A stretch of DNA of 64,000 nucleotides from Pseudomonadota bacterium. GTDB lineage: Archaea; Thermoplasmatota; SW-10-69-26; JACQPN01; JAJPHT01. Shown here piece after piece: positions 4,185-9,758 of the stretch; the stretch's first letter is position 1, and each line of letters opens with the position of its first letter. The notes under the pieces are model-generated. The model saw nothing but the letters and a program-made list of their open reading frames with translations, ran no database searches and was not told the origin of the DNA. Made by a program: the position numbers and the translations under genes. Where the stretch lies: positions 64,001-128,000 of the forward strand of contig JAJPHT010000046.1 in assembly GCA_021325135.1 (NCBI GenBank), in the 5' to 3' direction.

Positions 4185-6062
4185 ATGAATCGCACCCTCA
4201 CCTTCACGGCCGTCGCCCTCGCGGCGGCGATGCTCGTGCCCACCGGCCTCGCGTCGTGGGGATCATACGGCGGCCAGGAGCCCGACAACAAGTACGACCT
4301 GCCCGCGGCGGGCAACTTCGTCTGGCAGGGCCCGCCCACCGGCACGGACCAGGTCTACTTCAACGTCGTGAACGGCTACGCGCCCAACGGCCCCGCGGGC
4401 GCCAGCCCCAACTCGGCCACGCTGGGCGACCGCGTGCAGGTGGCCGGCACCGGCTCCTACGCCGCGATCCTCGGCGTCTGGGTCGACTGCAACAAGGACG
4501 GCTACGTCGGCCTCGCCGACGGCGCGCTGCGCGAGTACCGCGCGGACGTCTCCGCCGCCGCGGGCTTCCCCGTGGACACGGACCGCTGCCCGGTCGTCCC
4601 CGAGGACGCCGCGCACGCGGGCGCCATCCACAACGCGAACAACTGGATCACGGAGCTCATCCCCATCACGAACGTGACCATCGCGAACACCAACGACGAC
4701 CCCCACGGCGTCACGGACCCCACCGGCACGTCTGGCGGCGTCCACAACCCCATGGTGGACTACCGCGTCATCGTCGACGAGTCGGCGAAGATGTGGGCGG
4801 ACCGCCTCCAGCCCGTGACGCCCACGGCGGCGCCCGCGCGCGACGGCTGCACGCAGGCCACCGTCATGTTCGGCAAGGGCCAGACGCGCCACACGGGCGG
4901 CATCCTCGACCACATCGACTGCGTCGAGTCGCTCTTCGCGCCGCGCCCCAACACCGTCTTCCGCCTCGTGAGCGAGAAGGACCCCACGGGCGCCGTGGGC
5001 CCCGCCGTGAGCGGCAACCCCGTCGCGCCCTTCAGCAAGCCCTCCGACCTGTGGGACGGCGGCGTGCTGGACGTCGACCTCTTCGGCACGGACCAGAGCT
5101 GCGCGGGCGGCGAGCCCCAGCCCTGCTCCAGCGGCAGCAACAGCATCGTCTCGGGCGAGCAGGACTGCTCCTCCGCGCCCGTCGTGGACACCACCGACGA
5201 GACCGGCACGCCCGGCCAGTCGGGCCAGAGCGGCGTGCGCGCGCCCGGCCAGCCCAACGTGAACCAGCACGGCACGGTCGCGGCCACGGTGAACGAGACC
5301 CACGAGGAGAGCGCGCTGGACGACTGCAACAGCGCGGACGACGGCGGCCTCGACTTCTACGGCAACGGTGTCACCGAGGTCCCCGTGGAGGACGCGGTCA
5401 CCGTCACCGGCAAGAACAGCGCCGAGATGAACTTCTTCTGGGACGGCGGCGCGGGCCGCGTCGACTGCGAGCAGGACGACGCCGTCGCGCTCTGCCAGCT
5501 CAACGGCATGCCCCTGGACGCGGGCGCCCCCGCCACCGAGATGGCCAACACCAACGGGCTGGGCGCCACCGCGGGCGCTCCCCAGGCCGACACGGGCAGC
5601 CCCGGCAACGAGTGGCTCGCGGACGCGTACTACGCGGACGAGCTGCCCCTCGTGAACGGCAACCGCGTCAACACCGACGACCCCACGCGCAGCACCGTCG
5701 GGTTCTTCCCCGGCGACTTCTACACGTTCTACGCCAGCGTGGGCCTCTCGGGCCTCGTCACGCCCGGCGGCGTGGGCCAGTACGGCGCCCCGTGGTGCCT
5801 GGACGGCATCGGCCGCAACGCGGGCATCCAGAACGGCTGGGACTGCGACCCCGCCAACTGGAACCTCGACCCCACCACCGGCGCGAAGCTGGACGACCAG
5901 GCGCACCGCGGCACCGTGGGCGACCCGTACAACCTGCGCGACGTGGACTGCTACGACACCACGCTCGTGGGCGCGGGCTCCAGCCTGAACCCCACGGGCG
6001 AGGACGTGGGCCCCCGCTCGCTGCCCAGCCCGGTCATCGACCCGGCGCAGGGCTGCTACTAG
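4185..6062 (+). CDS. Large secreted Asp/Gly/Cys-rich protein
   Basis: Signal peptide, 14 Cys, DCNKDG Ca-binding-type loop, strong GC3 bias. Confidence 0.85.
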   Translation: MNRTLTFTAVALAAAMLVPTGLASWGSYGGQEPDNKYDLPAAGNFVWQGPPTGTDQVYFNVVNGYAPNGPAGASPNSATLGDRVQVAGTGSYAAILGVWVDCNKDGYVGLADGALREYRADVSAAAGFPVDTDRCPVVPEDAAHAGAIHNANNWITELIPITNVTIANTNDDPHGVTDPTGTSGGVHNPMVDYRVIVDESAKMWADRLQPVTPTAAPARDGCTQATVMFGKGQTRHTGGILDHIDCVESLFAPRPNTVFRLVSEKDPTGAVGPAVSGNPVAPFSKPSDLWDGGVLDVDLFGTDQSCAGGEPQPCSSGSNSIVSGEQDCSSAPVVDTTDETGTPGQSGQSGVRAPGQPNVNQHGTVAATVNETHEESALDDCNSADDGGLDFYGNGVTEVPVEDAVTVTGKNSAEMNFFWDGGAGRVDCEQDDAVALCQLNGMPLDAGAPATEMANTNGLGATAGAPQADTGSPGNEWLADAYYADELPLVNGNRVNTDDPTRSTVGFFPGDFYTFYASVGLSGLVTPGGVGQYGAPWCLDGIGRNAGIQNGWDCDPANWNLDPTTGAKLDDQAHRGTVGDPYNLRDVDCYDTTLVGAGSSLNPTGEDVGPRSLPSPVIDPAQGCY

Positions 6063-6130
6063 GCAACCCCCCGCGGCGGGCGACCGCCGCGGCCCCCTCC
6101 TTTTTCTAGTTGCTTCTTCCAACGCCCAGC

Positions 6131-7342
6131 GTGCGCGCCGCCGCGCCGGGCCTCGCCCTCCTCCTCGTGGTCGCCGGCCTCGCCAGCGCGCACCCGGCCC
6201 TCCTCTCGTCGGAGCCTCCGGCCGGGGCGCGCCTCGCGCCGGGGCCTCATGATATCACGCTGCGCTTCAGCGAGGGGCTGGAGGGGGCCTTCACCGAGGC
6301 GGTCCTCCTGAACGCGGAGGGCCGCGCGCTGCCAAGGACGCTGGAGCGCCCGCCGCTGGACCCGGCCGTGCTCGTGGTCCACGCGCAGGACCTCCCTCCG
6401 GGAGGCTACGTCCTCCGGTGGCGCGCGCTGGGCCTCGACGGCCACTCCGCCACCGGGGAGATCCCCTACGCGGTGGGCGACGCGGCGGTGCCGGTCGTGG
6501 TCGGGGCCCCCGCGCCGGCGCCCGTGCTGGAAAGCGCGGGCCGCGGCGCGCTCCTGCTGGGATTGCTCGTGGCCGCGGGGGCGCCGGGCATGCTGGCGGC
6601 GATGCGCGCGGAGGCGCCGCCGCGGCGCGCGCGCCTCCTCCTGGTGGCGGCGACGGGGCTCGCGGCGGCGGGCGCGCTGGCGCTCCTCGTGGCCCTCGCG
6701 TCGAGCCTGGGCGCGGGCCTCCTCGTGGCCGTGGCGACGGCGCCCGGCGAGGTGCTCGCCGCGCAGGCCGCGCTCGCGCTGCTGTCGTTCGGGCTCTCGT
6801 GGCGCGCCGCGCGGCAGCCCGCGGCGTGGGCGGCGGTGGGCGCCCTCTTCGTCCACCTGGGGACCTCCCACGGCGTCGCAGGGGGCGCCGTCGGCGGCGC
6901 GCACGGGGCGCACCTGCACCTCCTCGCCCTGGCCGCGCACCTGGGCGCCGCGGCGGTCTGGGCGGGCGGGCTCGCCGCGCTCCTTTTGATATCAGGCGGG
7001 GCCGCGGCGCGGGCGGGCGCCATCCGGCGCTTCTCCCCCTGGGCCCTGGGGGGCGTCGCGCTCCTGGCCGCCACCGGCGCGTACCAGGCGTGGGCGGACC
7101 TCCCGGGGCTGGGGGCCCTCGCGGGCAGCGCGTATGGGCGGCTGCTCCTGGCGAAGACGGGCCTCTTCGCGCTCCTCGTGGGGCTGGGCGCCTTGCAGCA
7201 GCGCGTCATCGGGCCGCGCCTTGCCCGCCTGGCCACGCGGCCCGCCGGAGCGCGCGTCGCCCTCGCCGTGGAGGCCTTCGCCATGGCCGGGCTCCTCGCC
7301 CTGGCGGGTGTCCTCGGCGCGACCGCGACGCCGACGCCGTGA
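6131..7342 (+). CDS. copCD: CopC-CopD copper-binding/uptake fusion
   Basis: Signal peptide then ASA/HPALLSSEP (His1), YVLRWRALGLDGH (CopC Cu site); CopD motifs HLGAAAVWAGGL, IRRFS, YGRLLLAK. Confidence 0.85.
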   Translation: MRAAAPGLALLLVVAGLASAHPALLSSEPPAGARLAPGPHDITLRFSEGLEGAFTEAVLLNAEGRALPRTLERPPLDPAVLVVHAQDLPPGGYVLRWRALGLDGHSATGEIPYAVGDAAVPVVVGAPAPAPVLESAGRGALLLGLLVAAGAPGMLAAMRAEAPPRRARLLLVAATGLAAAGALALLVALASSLGAGLLVAVATAPGEVLAAQAALALLSFGLSWRAARQPAAWAAVGALFVHLGTSHGVAGGAVGGAHGAHLHLLALAAHLGAAAVWAGGLAALLLISGGAAARAGAIRRFSPWALGGVALLAATGAYQAWADLPGLGALAGSAYGRLLLAKTGLFALLVGLGALQQRVIGPRLARLATRPAGARVALAVEAFAMAGLLALAGVLGATATPTP

Positions 7343-7448
7343 CGGCGGGAAAACCCCTCGGGTCCAAGAGGGGTGGGAAAAGCTCGCCGGTCTAAATAGC
7401 CGCCACGAGAAACCCAACTGGCTCCACGCGGGAGCCCCCGTGATCGCC

Positions 7449-7988
7449 ATGGATGGCTGGACCCTGGGCCTCGTCGCCAACGCCGTGATCGCCACCGCCT
7501 ACCTCGCCGTTGCCGTGCTGCTGGGGGTGAACATCTCCCGCACGCGCCAGTGGATGACCAACCCCCTGGCCGCGGGGACGTTCTTCCTCTACCTGACGTG
7601 CGGGGGCGCCCACGGCATCGTCGGGCTCCAGCTGGCCAGCCTCAGCGTCAGCGGCGCTGCCGTGGAGGGGAGCCGGCTCCTCTACGGCTCGTGGACGATG
7701 TGGGGCTGGGACATCGTCACCGCGGGCGTGGGCGTGTGGTACTGGACGATGCGCAACCGCTTCCCCGACCTCGTCTCGGGCACCGCCGTCTTCGAGGACC
7801 TCCGCCAGCGGCAGAAGCGCGCCGTGGAGATCAACGACAACGTCGTCCAGGGCCTCGCGCGCGCGAAGCTGAGCCTCGACCTGCACCGCGACGCGGAGGG
7901 CCGCGAGGCCTTGCAGGAGACCATCGAGGCCAGCCAGCGCATCGTGAAGGAGCTGGAGGCGACGCACCCCAAGGAGGCGGGCGGATGA
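7449..7988 (+). CDS. ETR1-like 3-TM sensor with degenerate HisKA_3-like tail (paralog 1)
   Basis: N11-x6-Y18...C51-x3-H55, TAGV, FPDLVS; tail RAVEINDNVVQGL with Asn at the His position, no ATPase domain. Confidence 0.75.
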   Translation: MDGWTLGLVANAVIATAYLAVAVLLGVNISRTRQWMTNPLAAGTFFLYLTCGGAHGIVGLQLASLSVSGAAVEGSRLLYGSWTMWGWDIVTAGVGVWYWTMRNRFPDLVSGTAVFEDLRQRQKRAVEINDNVVQGLARAKLSLDLHRDAEGREALQETIEASQRIVKELEATHPKEAGG

Positions 7989-8572
7989 GCTTCGAGTGGT
8001 GGTGGATCACCGCGGCCTCCAACGCGATCATGGTGGTCATCTACGCCGTCATCGCCACGATCATGATCCGCGGCATCCAGACGGGGCACCAGTGGCGCAC
8101 GAACCCCATCGCGGTCGCCACGGCCGCCGTGTTCGTGACGTGCACGGTCGCCCACGGGCAGCACCTCCTCCACCTGCTGCCGCCCCTCGCGCAGGCGGAG
8201 CCCGCCCAGTTCGCCGCCGCGCAGGCCATGTTCAACGACCCCGCGCTCGTGGTCTGGGACGGCTTCACCGCCTCGGTCGCCGTCTGGTACTTCCTCATGC
8301 GCAGCCGCCTCGTCATCGTCTACGAGGGCGCCGCCCTCTGCGAGGACATCGCGGAGCGCCAGCGCCAGGCGGCCCTCCTCCACGAGAAGGTCGTCGAGGG
8401 GCTCGCCCGGGCCGAGCGCGCGCTGGAGAACGGAGAGCGCGAGGCGGGCCTGCGCAGCATCGAGGCCACGCTGGAGGAGAGCAAGACCATCATCACGACG
8501 CTCGTGGGACGCGCCGGCACCCGCGCGGGCCTGGGCCCGGGCGACCTGCGCCGCGACCAGCCGAGCCACTAG
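7985..8572 (+). CDS. ETR1-like 3-TM sensor with HisKA_3-like tail (paralog 2)
   Basis: N13-x6-Y20...C53-x3-H57, TASV; tail QAALLHEKVVEGL; ATGA overlap with paralog 1. Confidence 0.75.
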   Translation: MSFEWWWITAASNAIMVVIYAVIATIMIRGIQTGHQWRTNPIAVATAAVFVTCTVAHGQHLLHLLPPLAQAEPAQFAAAQAMFNDPALVVWDGFTASVAVWYFLMRSRLVIVYEGAALCEDIAERQRQAALLHEKVVEGLARAERALENGEREAGLRSIEATLEESKTIITTLVGRAGTRAGLGPGDLRRDQPSH

Positions 8573-8579
8573 GAGCATC

Positions 8580-9296
8580 ATGCAGGCGAGCGACCCCCTC
8601 ACCACCGAGCCGCCCCAGGACCCGCGCCTGCGCGAGCTGGAGCGCCAGAACGCCGAGCTGCAGCGCTTCGCCTCCCACGCCGCGCACGACCTCCAGGAGC
8701 CCCTGCGCCTCGTAAGCGGCTACCTCGACGTCCTCCTCGCCGAGCACGAGGCCGCCCTCCCCGCCGACGCGCGCATGCTCGCCCGCGAGGCCCGCGACGC
8801 GGCGCTCCGCATGCAGGGCCTCGTGCAGGGGCTCCTGGAGCAGGCGCGCGCCACCGACGCCGCGCTCCACCTGGAGACGTACCCCCTCTCCGAGAGCTAC
8901 GAGGAGGCTATGACAAACCTCGCCGGCGCCGCGGGCGTCGCGTGCGGCCCGCTGCCCATCGTGCGCGCCGACCGCAGGCAGATCACGCGCGTGCTCCAGA
9001 ACCTCCTCTCCAACGCCCTCAAGTTCCACGCGCCCGACGACCCCGCCCGCGTCGAGGTCTCCGCGCGGCGCGCGGGCCGCGAGTGGGAGATCCTCGTCGC
9101 CGACCACGGCCTCGGCCTCCCCGAGAAGGCGCCCCTCTTCGAGCCCTTCCGCCGCCACCACCCCCAGATCCCCGGCACGGGCCTCGGCCTCGCCGCGTGC
9201 AAGGCCATCGTCGAGCGCCACGGCGGCCGCATCTGGGCGACGCCCACCGAGGGCGGCGGCGCCACGTTCCACTTCACCCTGGAGCCACCTCCATGA
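8580..9296 (+). CDS. Soluble histidine kinase core (HisKA + HATPase, no sensor domain)
   Basis: H-box AHDLQEPL, N-box NLLSNALKF, G1 DHGLG, G2 GTGLGL. Confidence 0.92.
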   Translation: MQASDPLTTEPPQDPRLRELERQNAELQRFASHAAHDLQEPLRLVSGYLDVLLAEHEAALPADARMLAREARDAALRMQGLVQGLLEQARATDAALHLETYPLSESYEEAMTNLAGAAGVACGPLPIVRADRRQITRVLQNLLSNALKFHAPDDPARVEVSARRAGREWEILVADHGLGLPEKAPLFEPFRRHHPQIPGTGLGLAACKAIVERHGGRIWATPTEGGGATFHFTLEPPP

Positions 9297-9736
9297 CCGA
9301 CGCGAGAATCCTTCTTGTGGACGACAACGACAAGCTGCGCGCGCTCTACCGCATCAGCCTCCAGATGGCCCAAGGCCTGGAGGTCGTGGGCGAGGCCGCC
9401 AACGGCGCCGAGGCCATCGAGGAGACGCGCGGCAAGCGCCCCGACCTCGTGCTGCTGGACCTCAGCATGCCCACCATGGACGGCCTGGAGGCGTTGGGCC
9501 GGCTGCGCCAGGCAAGCCCGCAGAGCCACGTCGTCGTCCTCACCGGCTTCCGCAACGAGCGCCTGGGAAGCGTCGCCATCGAGCTTGGCGCCACCGCGTT
9601 CCTGGAGAAGGGCATCTCACCCACCGAGCTTGCGGCGCGCGTCAAGGACGTGCTCGCGCGGCCCGTGCCCGCCTACCACGAGCCGGGCGAGGAGAAGCGC
9701 GCGGAGCTGGAGCGCAGGGTGCGGGACCTGGTCTGA
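9293..9736 (+). CDS. Stand-alone response regulator receiver
   Basis: ILLVDD, DLVLLDLSMPTMDG, VVLT, FLEK; ATGA overlap with the kinase; no output domain. Confidence 0.92.
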   Translation: MTDARILLVDDNDKLRALYRISLQMAQGLEVVGEAANGAEAIEETRGKRPDLVLLDLSMPTMDGLEALGRLRQASPQSHVVVLTGFRNERLGSVAIELGATAFLEKGISPTELAARVKDVLARPVPAYHEPGEEKRAELERRVRDLV

Positions 9737-9758
9737 TATCAGGAAATTTGATATCAGA
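9732..9758. repeat. Perfect AT-rich inverted repeat (10-7-10)
   Basis: TCTGATATCA-GGAAATT-TGATATCAGA between the convergent receiver gene and tRNA-Asn. Confidence 0.8.

What the first reader, a model, noticed from the sequence alone, without database searches (positions are those of the whole stretch)
6131..9736. Candidate archaeal ethylene-receptor-like, copper-cofactor signalling system next to copCD
Seen: two paralogous ~180-195-aa membrane proteins (7449, 7985) each have three hydrophobic helices with N-x6-Y in helix 1, C-x3-H in helix 2 and TAxV in helix 3; paralog 1 also has PDLVS after helix 3. The Y-to-C spacing is 33 residues in both. They are followed by a kinase and a receiver, and preceded on the same strand by a CopC-CopD fusion with an intact CopC Cu site. 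Established: the Arabidopsis ETR1 ethylene-binding domain has D25-x6-Y32, C65-x3-H69 (also 33 residues from Y to C), then K91-VLTAVVS and PDLLS; Cys65/His69 ligate the Cu(I) cofactor, which must be delivered by a copper transporter. Both proteins here have Asn at the D25 position and Asp at the K91 position, a paired change. Inference: a heterodimeric Cu-dependent sensor of ethylene, another small gas/alkene, or copper itself, metallated via CopCD. I know of no characterised archaeal example. Caveat: a TATA-like CTAAATAG at about 7392 suggests the sensor operon has its own promoter, so the copCD link may be only positional.
Basis: partly seen in the sequence, partly recalled or inferred. Interest (0 to 1): 0.88.

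Follow-up and report, generated by a model that had tools for sequence, protein, structure and literature searches.

The report
Kinase-less ethylene-receptor-like sensor pair, archaeal
A soil archaeon carries two adjacent small membrane proteins that are real but divergent relatives of the copper-containing ethylene-sensing domain of plants; they have no kinase of their own and probably work as a pair on the neighbouring response regulator, while the copper-transport gene next door is a chance neighbour.

Summary
All motifs, spacings and gene positions are as described. The two proteins (7449-7988, 7985-8572) belong to a family of several hundred clusters that is homologous to Pfam ETR1_N. 76 of 130 members hit it at E<=0.01, and two archaeal and two actinobacterial relatives pass Pfam's cut-off. 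hhalign against 24 canonical domains gives E=3e-4 in the ETR1 register.

The family is a distinct branch. It keeps the Cu-ligand Cys/His pair but has Asn for D25, Asp for K91, Ala for P36 and Phe/Tyr for I62. Ethylene binding is therefore not implied.

After helix 3 comes a HisKA_3-like helical hairpin with no ATPase domain. In paralog 1 the phospho-acceptor His is Asn, but the DxxxQ phosphatase motif is intact.

First and second paralogs form two old, mirrored clades. A natural A-TM-B fusion exists, and a heterodimer model scores 0.71 against 0.01 for controls.

A receiver gene follows the sensor(s) almost everywhere. copCD was found beside none of about 90 other loci.

Best reading: a heterodimeric, probably metal-dependent membrane sensor that controls the receiver, probably as a phosphatase, with the ligand unknown. 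The scan had already noted the actinobacterial branch and kinase-less pairs on other DNA.

The parts
7449..7988 (+). Paralog 1 (A-type sensor, P0001, 179 aa; alternative GTG start at 7440). It has three TM helices with N11, Y18, C51-x3-H55 and D88-x2-T91-A92, followed by a HisKA_3-like helical hairpin (113-172). In that hairpin Asn129 sits at the phospho-His position and D130-x3-Q134 is intact. There is no ATPase domain.
7985..8572 (+). Paralog 2 (B-type sensor, P0002, 195 aa). It has three TM helices with N13, Y20 and D92-x2-T95-A96. TM2 carries C53-x3-H57-x2-H60-x2-H63, and all four residues are invariant in the B clade. The hairpin keeps His133, but the DxxxQ motif is degenerate (H-E-K-V-V-E). 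The C-terminus has a GPGDLRR tail.
8580..9296 (+). Soluble histidine kinase (P0003, 238 aa) without a sensor domain. It has HisKA (H36) and HATPase_c, no TM segment and no input domain.
9293..9736 (+). Receiver-only response regulator (P0004, 147 aa) with D10/D11, D56, T84 and K106 intact. Its best NCBIfam match is the NarL-type receiver.
7343..7448 (+). Intergenic region between copCD and the sensors. It holds a hairpin CCCCTC-n8-GAGGGG just after the copCD stop, the TATA-like TCTAAATAG at about 7391-7399, and GGGAG 5 nt before GTG 7440.
   Evidence: read directly; promoter function is inferred
6110..7342 (+). CopC-CopD fusion (P0005, 410 aa). It is a real copper-handling gene, but it is a positional neighbour only and not part of the conserved system.

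Best explanation
The four genes 7449-9736 form one signalling operon.

The two paralogs are kinase-less membrane sensors. Their three-helix domain is a divergent branch of the ETR1_N (ethylene-binding-domain) superfamily.
- Shown: homology to ETR1_N, and retention of the membrane-embedded Cys-x3-His that ligates Cu(I) in ETR1.
- Shown: the D25/K91 polar pair is replaced by Asn (helix 1) and Asp (helix 3).
- Inferred: the site binds Cu(I) or another soft metal and senses a small membrane-permeant ligand. The ligand need not be ethylene.

A and B assemble as a heterodimer through TM2-TM3' contacts and a four-helix bundle of their HisKA_3-like hairpins. This is supported by two mirrored clades, a natural fusion and a complex model.

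Neither paralog can autophosphorylate, because neither has an ATPase domain.
- Inferred output, about 40-45% likely: the sensor-less kinase P0003 phosphorylates the receiver P0004, and the sensor pair removes the phosphoryl group through the DxxxQ motif. That motif is invariant in A-type subunits. Ligand binding would change the helix register and so the phosphatase activity.

The adjacent copCD is an independent copper gene.
For: Homology:
- ETR1_N is the only recurrent Pfam hit on the membrane part (22/22 members at E<=1; 76/130 at E<=0.01, best 7.5e-8).
- Long relatives P0114 and P0154 score 29.0 and 27.6 bits, above the cut-off of 27.
- Archaeal relatives in G154 and G052 score 30.5 and 27.5 bits, while 0 of 14 control genomes gave a hit at that threshold.
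- hhalign of the family against 24 canonical domains gives E=3e-4. It puts N on D, Y on Y, C on C and H on H. The comparison with AzoEtr1 alone gives the same register.

Conservation:
- H55 in 173 and C51 in 157 of about 178 sequences.
- D88 in 166, N11 in 135, T91 in 148, A92 in 187.

Hairpin:
- HisKA_3 hits in 38/130 members.
- hhalign to E. coli NarX aligns N129/D130/Q134 with H399/D400/Q404.
- D130 and Q134 are invariant in 27 A-type sequences, while position 129 varies between H and N.
- DxxxQ is the NarX phosphatase motif, and the paper's reference list cites Zhu et al. [quoted passage not shown]

Pairing:
- First and second genes each form one clade (100/99) with mirrored topology.
- P0067 is an A-[extra TM]-B fusion.
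- The complex model scores ipSAE 0.71 against a best control of 0.01. That mark was reached by 58 of 80 solved complexes and 2 of 110 mismatched pairs. Runs agree in at least 86% of contacts, and the partner's pLDDT is at least 74.

Coupling to the receiver:
- A REC gene or REC-containing protein lies immediately downstream of the sensor(s) in nearly all loci examined, archaeal and bacterial.
- Seven of the nine single-sensor loci have no kinase gene nearby.
Against: - No biochemical data exist for any member of this branch.
- The two window proteins are below Pfam's threshold, and hhalign probability is only 40% over helices 1-2.
- Metal binding is inferred from two residues. About 10% of family members lack the Cys.
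- The phosphatase idea rests on a motif. In the window's B subunit that motif is degenerate.
- The hairpin fold match to DesK (Z 7.7) is no better than matches to unrelated helical hairpins.
- The complex model cannot distinguish a heterodimer from homodimers. It may have passed because two-component DHp dimers are well represented among solved structures.
- In all 11 pairs where both H-box positions could be read, at least one subunit keeps the His, which would also fit a phosphotransfer role.
Confidence: 0.55

Rival explanations
1. This is a genuine archaeal ethylene receptor. The Cys/His site holds Cu(I) and binds ethylene, perhaps with lower affinity as in ETR1-D25N.
For: - The domain is homologous in the ETR1 register.
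- Asn at D25 is a natural variant that still signals in planta (PMC10266040).
- Relatives occur in soil and plant-associated Actinoplanes, Frankia and Parafrankia and in farmland metagenomes, where ethylene is present.
Against: - P36 is Ala and I62 is Tyr/Phe. Both residues are listed among those essential for ethylene binding (PMC6586836).
- From my own knowledge, not checked here: I62F is the etr1-4 allele, which abolishes binding.
- K91 is Asp.
- In the B clade, helix 2 carries three invariant His that are absent from canonical domains.
Confidence: 0.15
2. The sensors are accessory input subunits of the soluble kinase. Their hairpins dock onto or intercalate with the DHp/CA of P0003 and switch its autokinase activity. 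The receiver is simply the kinase's substrate.
For: - The sensor-less kinase is adjacent in 9 of 12 two-sensor loci.
- In Acidimicrobiia the sensor is followed by a REC-kinase hybrid.
- In actinobacteria the same membrane domain is fused directly to PAS-HisKA-HATPase kinases.
- Earlier scan notes describe other kinase-less EBD proteins encoded beside kinases.
Against: - Seven of the nine single-sensor loci have a receiver but no kinase gene within the flanks examined.
- This reading does not explain the invariance of DxxxQ in A-type subunits.
- The kinase is HisKA-type whereas the hairpins are HisKA_3-type.
Confidence: 0.25
3. This is a copper (or silver) ion sensor that regulates the adjacent copCD.
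For: - copCD lies directly upstream on the same strand.
- A membrane Cys/His site could bind Cu(I).
Against: - No copCD-like gene was found beside about 90 other loci of the family.
- The receiver has no DNA-binding domain.
- A hairpin and a TATA-like box separate the two units.
Confidence: 0.05
4. The conserved Cys/His/Asn/Asp cluster is not a metal site. It is a thiol-redox switch, a proton or polar-network switch, or a membrane-state sensor.
For: - Cys is replaced by Gly/Ala/Val in about 10% of members, while His is nearly invariant.
- No metal-handling gene recurs in the neighbourhoods.
Against: - The pair is homologous to the experimentally established Cu(I) ligands of ETR1.
- The B clade adds a ladder of three further His on the same helix.
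Confidence: 0.15

Closest known systems
Canonical ethylene-binding domains: Arabidopsis ETR1, Synechocystis SynEtr1, Azospirillum AzoEtr1 (Pfam PF25487)
   Same: - Three TM helices.
- N-out/C-in topology, inferred here from the basic residues flanking the helices.
- Cys-x3-His in the middle of helix 2.
- Tyr 33 residues before the Cys.
- A polar residue seven positions before that Tyr.
- A polar residue followed by x2-T-A in helix 3.
- Acts as a dimer (modelled here).
   Different: - Asn for D25, Asp for K91 (the carboxylate has moved from helix 1 to helix 3), Ala for P36, Phe/Tyr for I62.
- The bacterial PHGxCLLWRP N-terminal motif is missing.
- The helix 2-3 loop is longer and contains a short helix.
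- There is no fused kinase.
- It is encoded as two co-evolving paralogs.
Actinomycetota hybrid histidine kinases with the same N-terminal domain (Actinoplanes, Virgisporangium, Frankia, Parafrankia; e.g. P0114, P0154)
   Same: - The same branch signature: N...Y, NRL/NPL, FF(S/T)CxxGH, WDxxTA, YYWTLR, LFEDL.
- phmmer E values of 1e-13 to 1e-20 to P0001.
   Different: In these proteins the domain is fused to PAS-HisKA-HATPase_c-REC(-HPt). In the window it ends in a bare HisKA_3-like hairpin.
Archaeal 'HisKA, no HATPase' non-enzymatic kinase-like proteins (Galperin et al. 2018, PMC5847659 section 7)
   Same: - A sensor domain plus a dimerisation/phosphotransfer hairpin without an ATPase domain.
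- RR-phosphatase activity was proposed for these too.
   Different: - Those proteins carry cytoplasmic PAS/GAF sensors and HisKA-type hairpins with a conserved His.
- Here the sensor is an ETR1_N-like membrane domain, the hairpin is HisKA_3-like, and the His is often Asn.
HisKA_3 sensor kinases NarX and DesK
   Same: - H-box register, with the DxxxQ phosphatase motif.
- The neighbouring receiver is closest to NarL-type receivers.
   Different: - No catalytic ATP-binding domain.
- The phospho-acceptor His is dispensable in the family.

Membership tests
Pfam PF25487 ETR1_N (sequence family) | Score at or above the curated cut-off of 27 bits | tested here: not met
   P0001 scores 16.6 bits and P0002 11.4 bits. 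Close relatives do pass: P0114 29.0 and P0154 27.6; archaeal G154 30.5 and G052 27.5. The family straddles the threshold.
Pfam PF25487 ETR1_N (sequence family) | Profile-level homology to canonical members in a consistent register | tested here: met
   hhalign of A2 against A3 gives E=3e-4 over 65 columns. 76 of 130 members hit at E<=0.01. The comparison with AzoEtr1 gives the same register.
Functional ethylene-binding domain (ETR1 residues required for binding) | Cys65 and His69, the Cu(I) ligands | tested here: met
   C51/H55 in paralog 1 and C53/H57 in paralog 2. They are nearly invariant in the family.
Functional ethylene-binding domain (ETR1 residues required for binding) | Asp25, with its partner Lys91 | tested here: not met
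   Asn11/Asn13 and Asp88/Asp92. Asn is a natural variant of canonical domains (3.67%, PMC10266040); the ETR1-D25N mutant has about 100-fold lower ethylene affinity (abstract of PMC11971883).
Functional ethylene-binding domain (ETR1 residues required for binding) | Tyr32 and Ile35 | tested here: met
   Y18 and V21 in paralog 1; Y20 and I23 in paralog 2. The family has Y/F and I/V at these positions.
Functional ethylene-binding domain (ETR1 residues required for binding) | Pro36 and Ile62 | tested here: not met
   Ala22/Ala24 and Tyr48/Phe50. At the I62 position the family has Phe in 134 and Tyr in 35 sequences.
Functional ethylene-binding domain (ETR1 residues required for binding) | Saturable ethylene binding and a Cu(I) cofactor | not testable with these tools
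   This needs radioligand and metal-binding assays.
HisKA_3 DHp domain | Phospho-acceptor His followed by DxxxQ | tested here: inconclusive
   Paralog 1 has N129-D130-x3-Q134: no His, motif intact. Paralog 2 has H133-E-x3-E: His present, motif degenerate. The register comes from hhalign to NarX (E=0.012). Pfam HisKA_3 hits 38 of 130 relatives but neither window protein.
Sensor histidine kinase | HATPase_c catalytic domain | tested here: not met
   Neither paralog has an HATPase_c match, and the proteins end after the hairpin.
copCD-linked copper-delivery system | Conserved adjacency of copCD and the sensor genes | tested here: not met
   A CopCD-like ORF is found only in the window among the 21 loci, and in 0 of the 80 loci.

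The most novel reading that the evidence does not exclude
A two-subunit, copper-dependent gas or alkene sensor in archaea and actinobacteria. The ETR1 carboxylate has moved from helix 1 to helix 3. One subunit (B) provides a Cys-His-His-His ladder for metal entry or binding. The other subunit (A) delivers the output as a ligand-gated response-regulator phosphatase. This would be an ethylene-receptor-fold sensor that signals by dephosphorylation rather than kinase activity, and at about 180 residues it would be a tractable protein for the first structure of this fold.
Probability: 0.2. Interest if true: 0.8.

Novelty: new variant of a known kind. Interest (0 to 1): 0.6.

Why it matters
- I found no solved structure of the ethylene-binding domain: sequence and fold searches of the PDB gave no match to this domain. 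Its copper and ethylene chemistry is still argued from mutants and models.
- This branch offers small (about 180 aa), confidently modelled natural proteins. They keep the Cys/His pair but swap the D25/K91 polar pair, which is a natural test of the Asp25-Lys91 coupling model.
- It extends the fold to Archaea. Two-component reviews list no ethylene-receptor-type sensors there (PMC6944256, PMC5847659).
- It shows the fold working without a fused kinase and as an obligate paralog pair.
- If the DxxxQ hairpins are signal-gated phosphatases, this would be a clear case of the 'non-enzymatic HK-like' class having a defined role.
- It does not show that archaea sense ethylene.

Tried and rejected
- A sequence search of the PDB with the family profile and with a hairpin fragment found no relative.
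- Foldseek against the PDB gave nothing at E<=0.001.
- The ESM Atlas shape search gave only TM<0.5 rows. Some of them were HisKA_3 kinases.
- VIA-align matched only the hairpin (DesK Z 7.7, rmsd 2.9, 64 residues), and it was tied with many unrelated hairpins. The fold searches therefore neither support nor refute the reading.
- tblastn of the actinobacterial domain against plasmids found nothing useful.
- A word-based search from P0114 reached only Actinomycetota kinases and no canonical receptors. Canonical sequences had to be fetched through the AzoEtr1 plasmid record.
- Wang 2006 and Hall 1999 are not held. The statement about I62F is from memory.
- All-against-all BLAST of flanking ORFs found no recurrent neighbour other than kinase and receiver.
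- 'At least one His per pair' held in all 11 pairs where both positions could be read. This is not significant given the His frequency and the relatedness of the loci, so I drew no conclusion from it.


Full report
**What is there**

The + strand carries, in order:
- a 625-aa secreted protein with no Pfam match (4185-6062);
- a CopC-CopD fusion (6110-7342);
- two small membrane proteins (7449-7988, 179 aa; 7985-8572, 195 aa, overlapping by ATGA);
- a 238-aa soluble HisKA+HATPase_c kinase with no input domain (8580-9296);
- a 147-aa receiver-only regulator (9293-9736, ATGA overlap).

The region is about 73% G+C. Named relatives of the two proteins come from Thermoplasmatota archaeon MAGs, so the host is archaeal.

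**Is the ETR1 resemblance real?**

On their own the two window proteins are weak. ETR1_N (PF25487) is the top Pfam hit of paralog 1 (16.6 bits) and the second of two weak hits for paralog 2 (11.4 bits), against a cut-off of 27. In a six-frame genome search at that level, 11 of 14 control genomes also give hits.

The family settles the question.
- An exhaustive phmmer search found 341 representative clusters.
- ETR1_N was hit by 22 of 22 members of a first alignment.
- It was hit by 76 of 130 members of a second alignment at E<=0.01, best 7.5e-8. No other membrane family recurred.
- Long relatives P0114 and P0154 pass the cut-off with matches that span all three helices.
- A genome search of 401 genomes of the phylum at E<=0.001 gave no hit in any control genome. 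All 11 genomes with a hit were among the 16 that carry this sensor family, and the hits whose coordinates I compared lay within those sensor genes. Two of them were above the cut-off.

I fetched the experimentally proven bacterial receptor AzoEtr1 from its plasmid record (136 bits) and built an alignment of 24 canonical domains. hhalign of family against canonical profile gave E=3e-4 (probability 40%) over helices 1-2.
- Asn on D25,
- Tyr on Y32,
- Cys on C65,
- His on H69.

In helix 3, D88-x2-T91-A92 parallels the canonical invariant K-x2-T-A. I put homology at about 0.85-0.9.

**A distinct branch, not a canonical ethylene-binding domain**

Conservation across about 200 sequences:
- His is nearly invariant (173) and Cys is present in 157.
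- The helix-1 polar residue is Asn (135) or Ser (26), and Asp in only 5.
- The helix-3 residue is Asp (166) or Glu (9), never the canonical Lys.

The D25-K91 pair that Azhar et al. found to co-evolve (PMC10266040) is thus replaced by an Asn/Asp pair. The carboxylate has moved from helix 1 to helix 3.

Of the seven residues needed for ethylene binding in ETR1 (C65, H69, I35, P36 and I62 are named in PMC6586836; D25 in PMC10266040; Y32 in PMC8879215):
- Cys, His and Tyr are kept, and Ile35 is conservatively kept;
- Asp25 is Asn, a natural variant; the abstract of PMC11971883 reports about 100-fold lower ethylene affinity for ETR1-D25N;
- Pro36 is Ala;
- Ile62 is Phe or Tyr.

From memory only, I62F is the binding-deficient etr1-4 allele. 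Ethylene is therefore possible but not implied. The PDLVS/PDLLS match is not conserved in either family and is best regarded as coincidence.

**The C-terminal halves**

The AF2 model (pLDDT 92.8) shows a helical hairpin (113-144, 148-172) after helix 3. Pfam HisKA_3 is the only other recurrent hit (13 of 22 members, 38 of 130). hhalign to E. coli NarX aligns N129-D130-x3-Q134 with H399-D400-x3-Q404. There is no ATPase domain.

Across the family the phospho-acceptor position is Asn (89) more often than His (64), while Asp130 (163) and Gln134 (150) are conserved. In 27 A-type sequences D130 and Q134 are invariant and position 129 varies.

DxxxQ is the motif required for NarX phosphatase activity. 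The same paper's reference list cites Zhu et al. 2000, whose title reports phosphatase activity of EnvZ without its kinase catalytic domain (PMC3510030). Galperin et al. already noted archaeal 'HisKA, no HATPase' proteins and proposed such a role for them (PMC5847659).

**Pairing**

In 12 two-gene loci the first genes form one clade and the second genes form another. Both clades have 100/99 support and mirrored internal topology. Single-gene forms branch beside the first-gene clade.

B-type subunits have an invariant C-x3-H-x2-H-x2-H ladder in helix 2 and often a degenerate DxxxQ. In the window the B subunit reads H-E-K-V-V-E.

P0067 is a natural fusion of an A-type unit, one extra TM helix that restores topology, and a B-type unit.

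A complex model of A+B scored ipSAE 0.71 against 0.01 for the best of three controls. That mark was reached by 58 of 80 solved complexes and 2 of 110 mismatched pairs. Runs agree in at least 86% of contacts, and the partner's pLDDT is at least 74. The interface is TM2 against TM3' plus the hairpin bundle, and Cys51/Cys53 and Asp88 lie in it. This supports binding but does not show it, and it cannot exclude homodimers.

**Neighbourhoods**

The counts come from 20 other loci and 80 loci from named genomes. A few loci are in both sets.
- A receiver gene or a REC-containing protein follows the sensor(s) almost everywhere.
- The sensor-less kinase accompanies 9 of 12 two-sensor loci.
- Seven of the nine single-sensor loci have no kinase nearby.
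- In Acidimicrobiia the next gene is a REC-kinase hybrid.
- A CopCD-like ORF was found in none of these loci.
- No other neighbour recurs.

In the window, copCD is followed by a hairpin and then a TATA-like TCTAAATAG about 40 nt before the sensor start. The copper-delivery link is therefore positional only.

**Distribution**

The system was found in 16 of 401 sampled genomes of the phylum and in none of 4 other genomes of the same genus. The short form also occurs in Acidimicrobiia, Egibacteraceae and Chloroflexia. The membrane domain heads hybrid kinases of Actinoplanes, Virgisporangium, Frankia and Parafrankia. This patchiness suggests transfer between soil Actinomycetota and Thermoplasmatota. 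The direction was not tested.

**Mechanism**

Shown:
- homology to ETR1_N;
- retention of the Cys/His pair;
- the Asn/Asp swap;
- absence of a catalytic domain;
- a conserved DxxxQ motif;
- two co-inherited paralog clades;
- conserved receiver adjacency.

Inferred:
- a Cu(I)-type metal site sensing a small hydrophobic ligand (about 0.55);
- an A/B heterodimer (about 0.7);
- output as a signal-gated phosphatase of the receiver, opposing the constitutive soluble kinase (about 0.4-0.45).

The main rival is that the sensors are accessory input subunits of the kinase (about 0.25). Ethylene specifically gets about 0.15. Copper sensing for copCD gets about 0.05.

**Novelty and earlier notes**

I found no report of an archaeal ETR1_N-type sensor in the papers searched. 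The ethylene-receptor sections of PMC6944256 concern eukaryotes and cyanobacteria only, and PMC5847659 does not contain the word ethylene.

Earlier notes of this scan had already flagged related things on other DNA: the divergent actinobacterial branch (e1-2473424) and kinase-less ETR-like pairs or stand-alone domains in bacteria (e1-1296467, e1-5256067). The same stretch was also read as a split two-component system (e1-5622283). My tests agree with those notes.

The finding is a new variant of a known kind. It is interesting mainly as a natural charge-swapped, minimal, two-subunit version of a fold for which I found no solved structure.

Noticed in passing
P0067 (metagenomic protein, 426 aa): A natural fusion of an A-type sensor, one extra TM helix (about residues 191-216) and a B-type sensor, in the same order as the tandem genes. 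This is Rosetta-stone evidence for an A/B complex, and the protein is a candidate for structural work.
   Followed up: partly
window 8141-8173 (paralog 2 residues 53-63): C53-x3-H57-x2-H60-x2-H63 is invariant in all 20 B-type sequences and absent from canonical ethylene-binding domains. It may be a metal ladder along helix 2.
   Followed up: partly
window 8530-8560 (C-terminus of paralog 2) and most B-type and single-type relatives: A conserved C-terminal tail (L)GPGDLRR follows the hairpin. It is lost in the window's A-type clade. Its function is unknown; it may be a docking motif.
   Followed up: no
window 9733-9757: Two copies of the palindrome-containing word TGATATCAG, 16 nt apart start to start. 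They lie between the receiver stop codon and a minus-strand tRNA gene.
   Followed up: no
window 4185-6062: A 625-aa protein with a signal peptide and no Pfam match lies 48 nt upstream of copCD on the same strand. It may belong to a copper-related operon.
   Followed up: no
L069, L070, L073, L074 (Acidimicrobiia): In these bacteria the kinase-less sensor is followed directly by a single protein that matches both the receiver and the kinase (a REC-kinase hybrid). This suggests the sensor hairpin acts on the REC domain that gates that kinase.
   Followed up: partly
L007/L008 (metagenome contigs): A single sensor with His in the H-box is followed by a receiver and then a REC-PAS-GGDEF-EAL protein. 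Its neighbours are bacterial (NrdR), so in some bacteria the output is probably c-di-GMP turnover.
   Followed up: no
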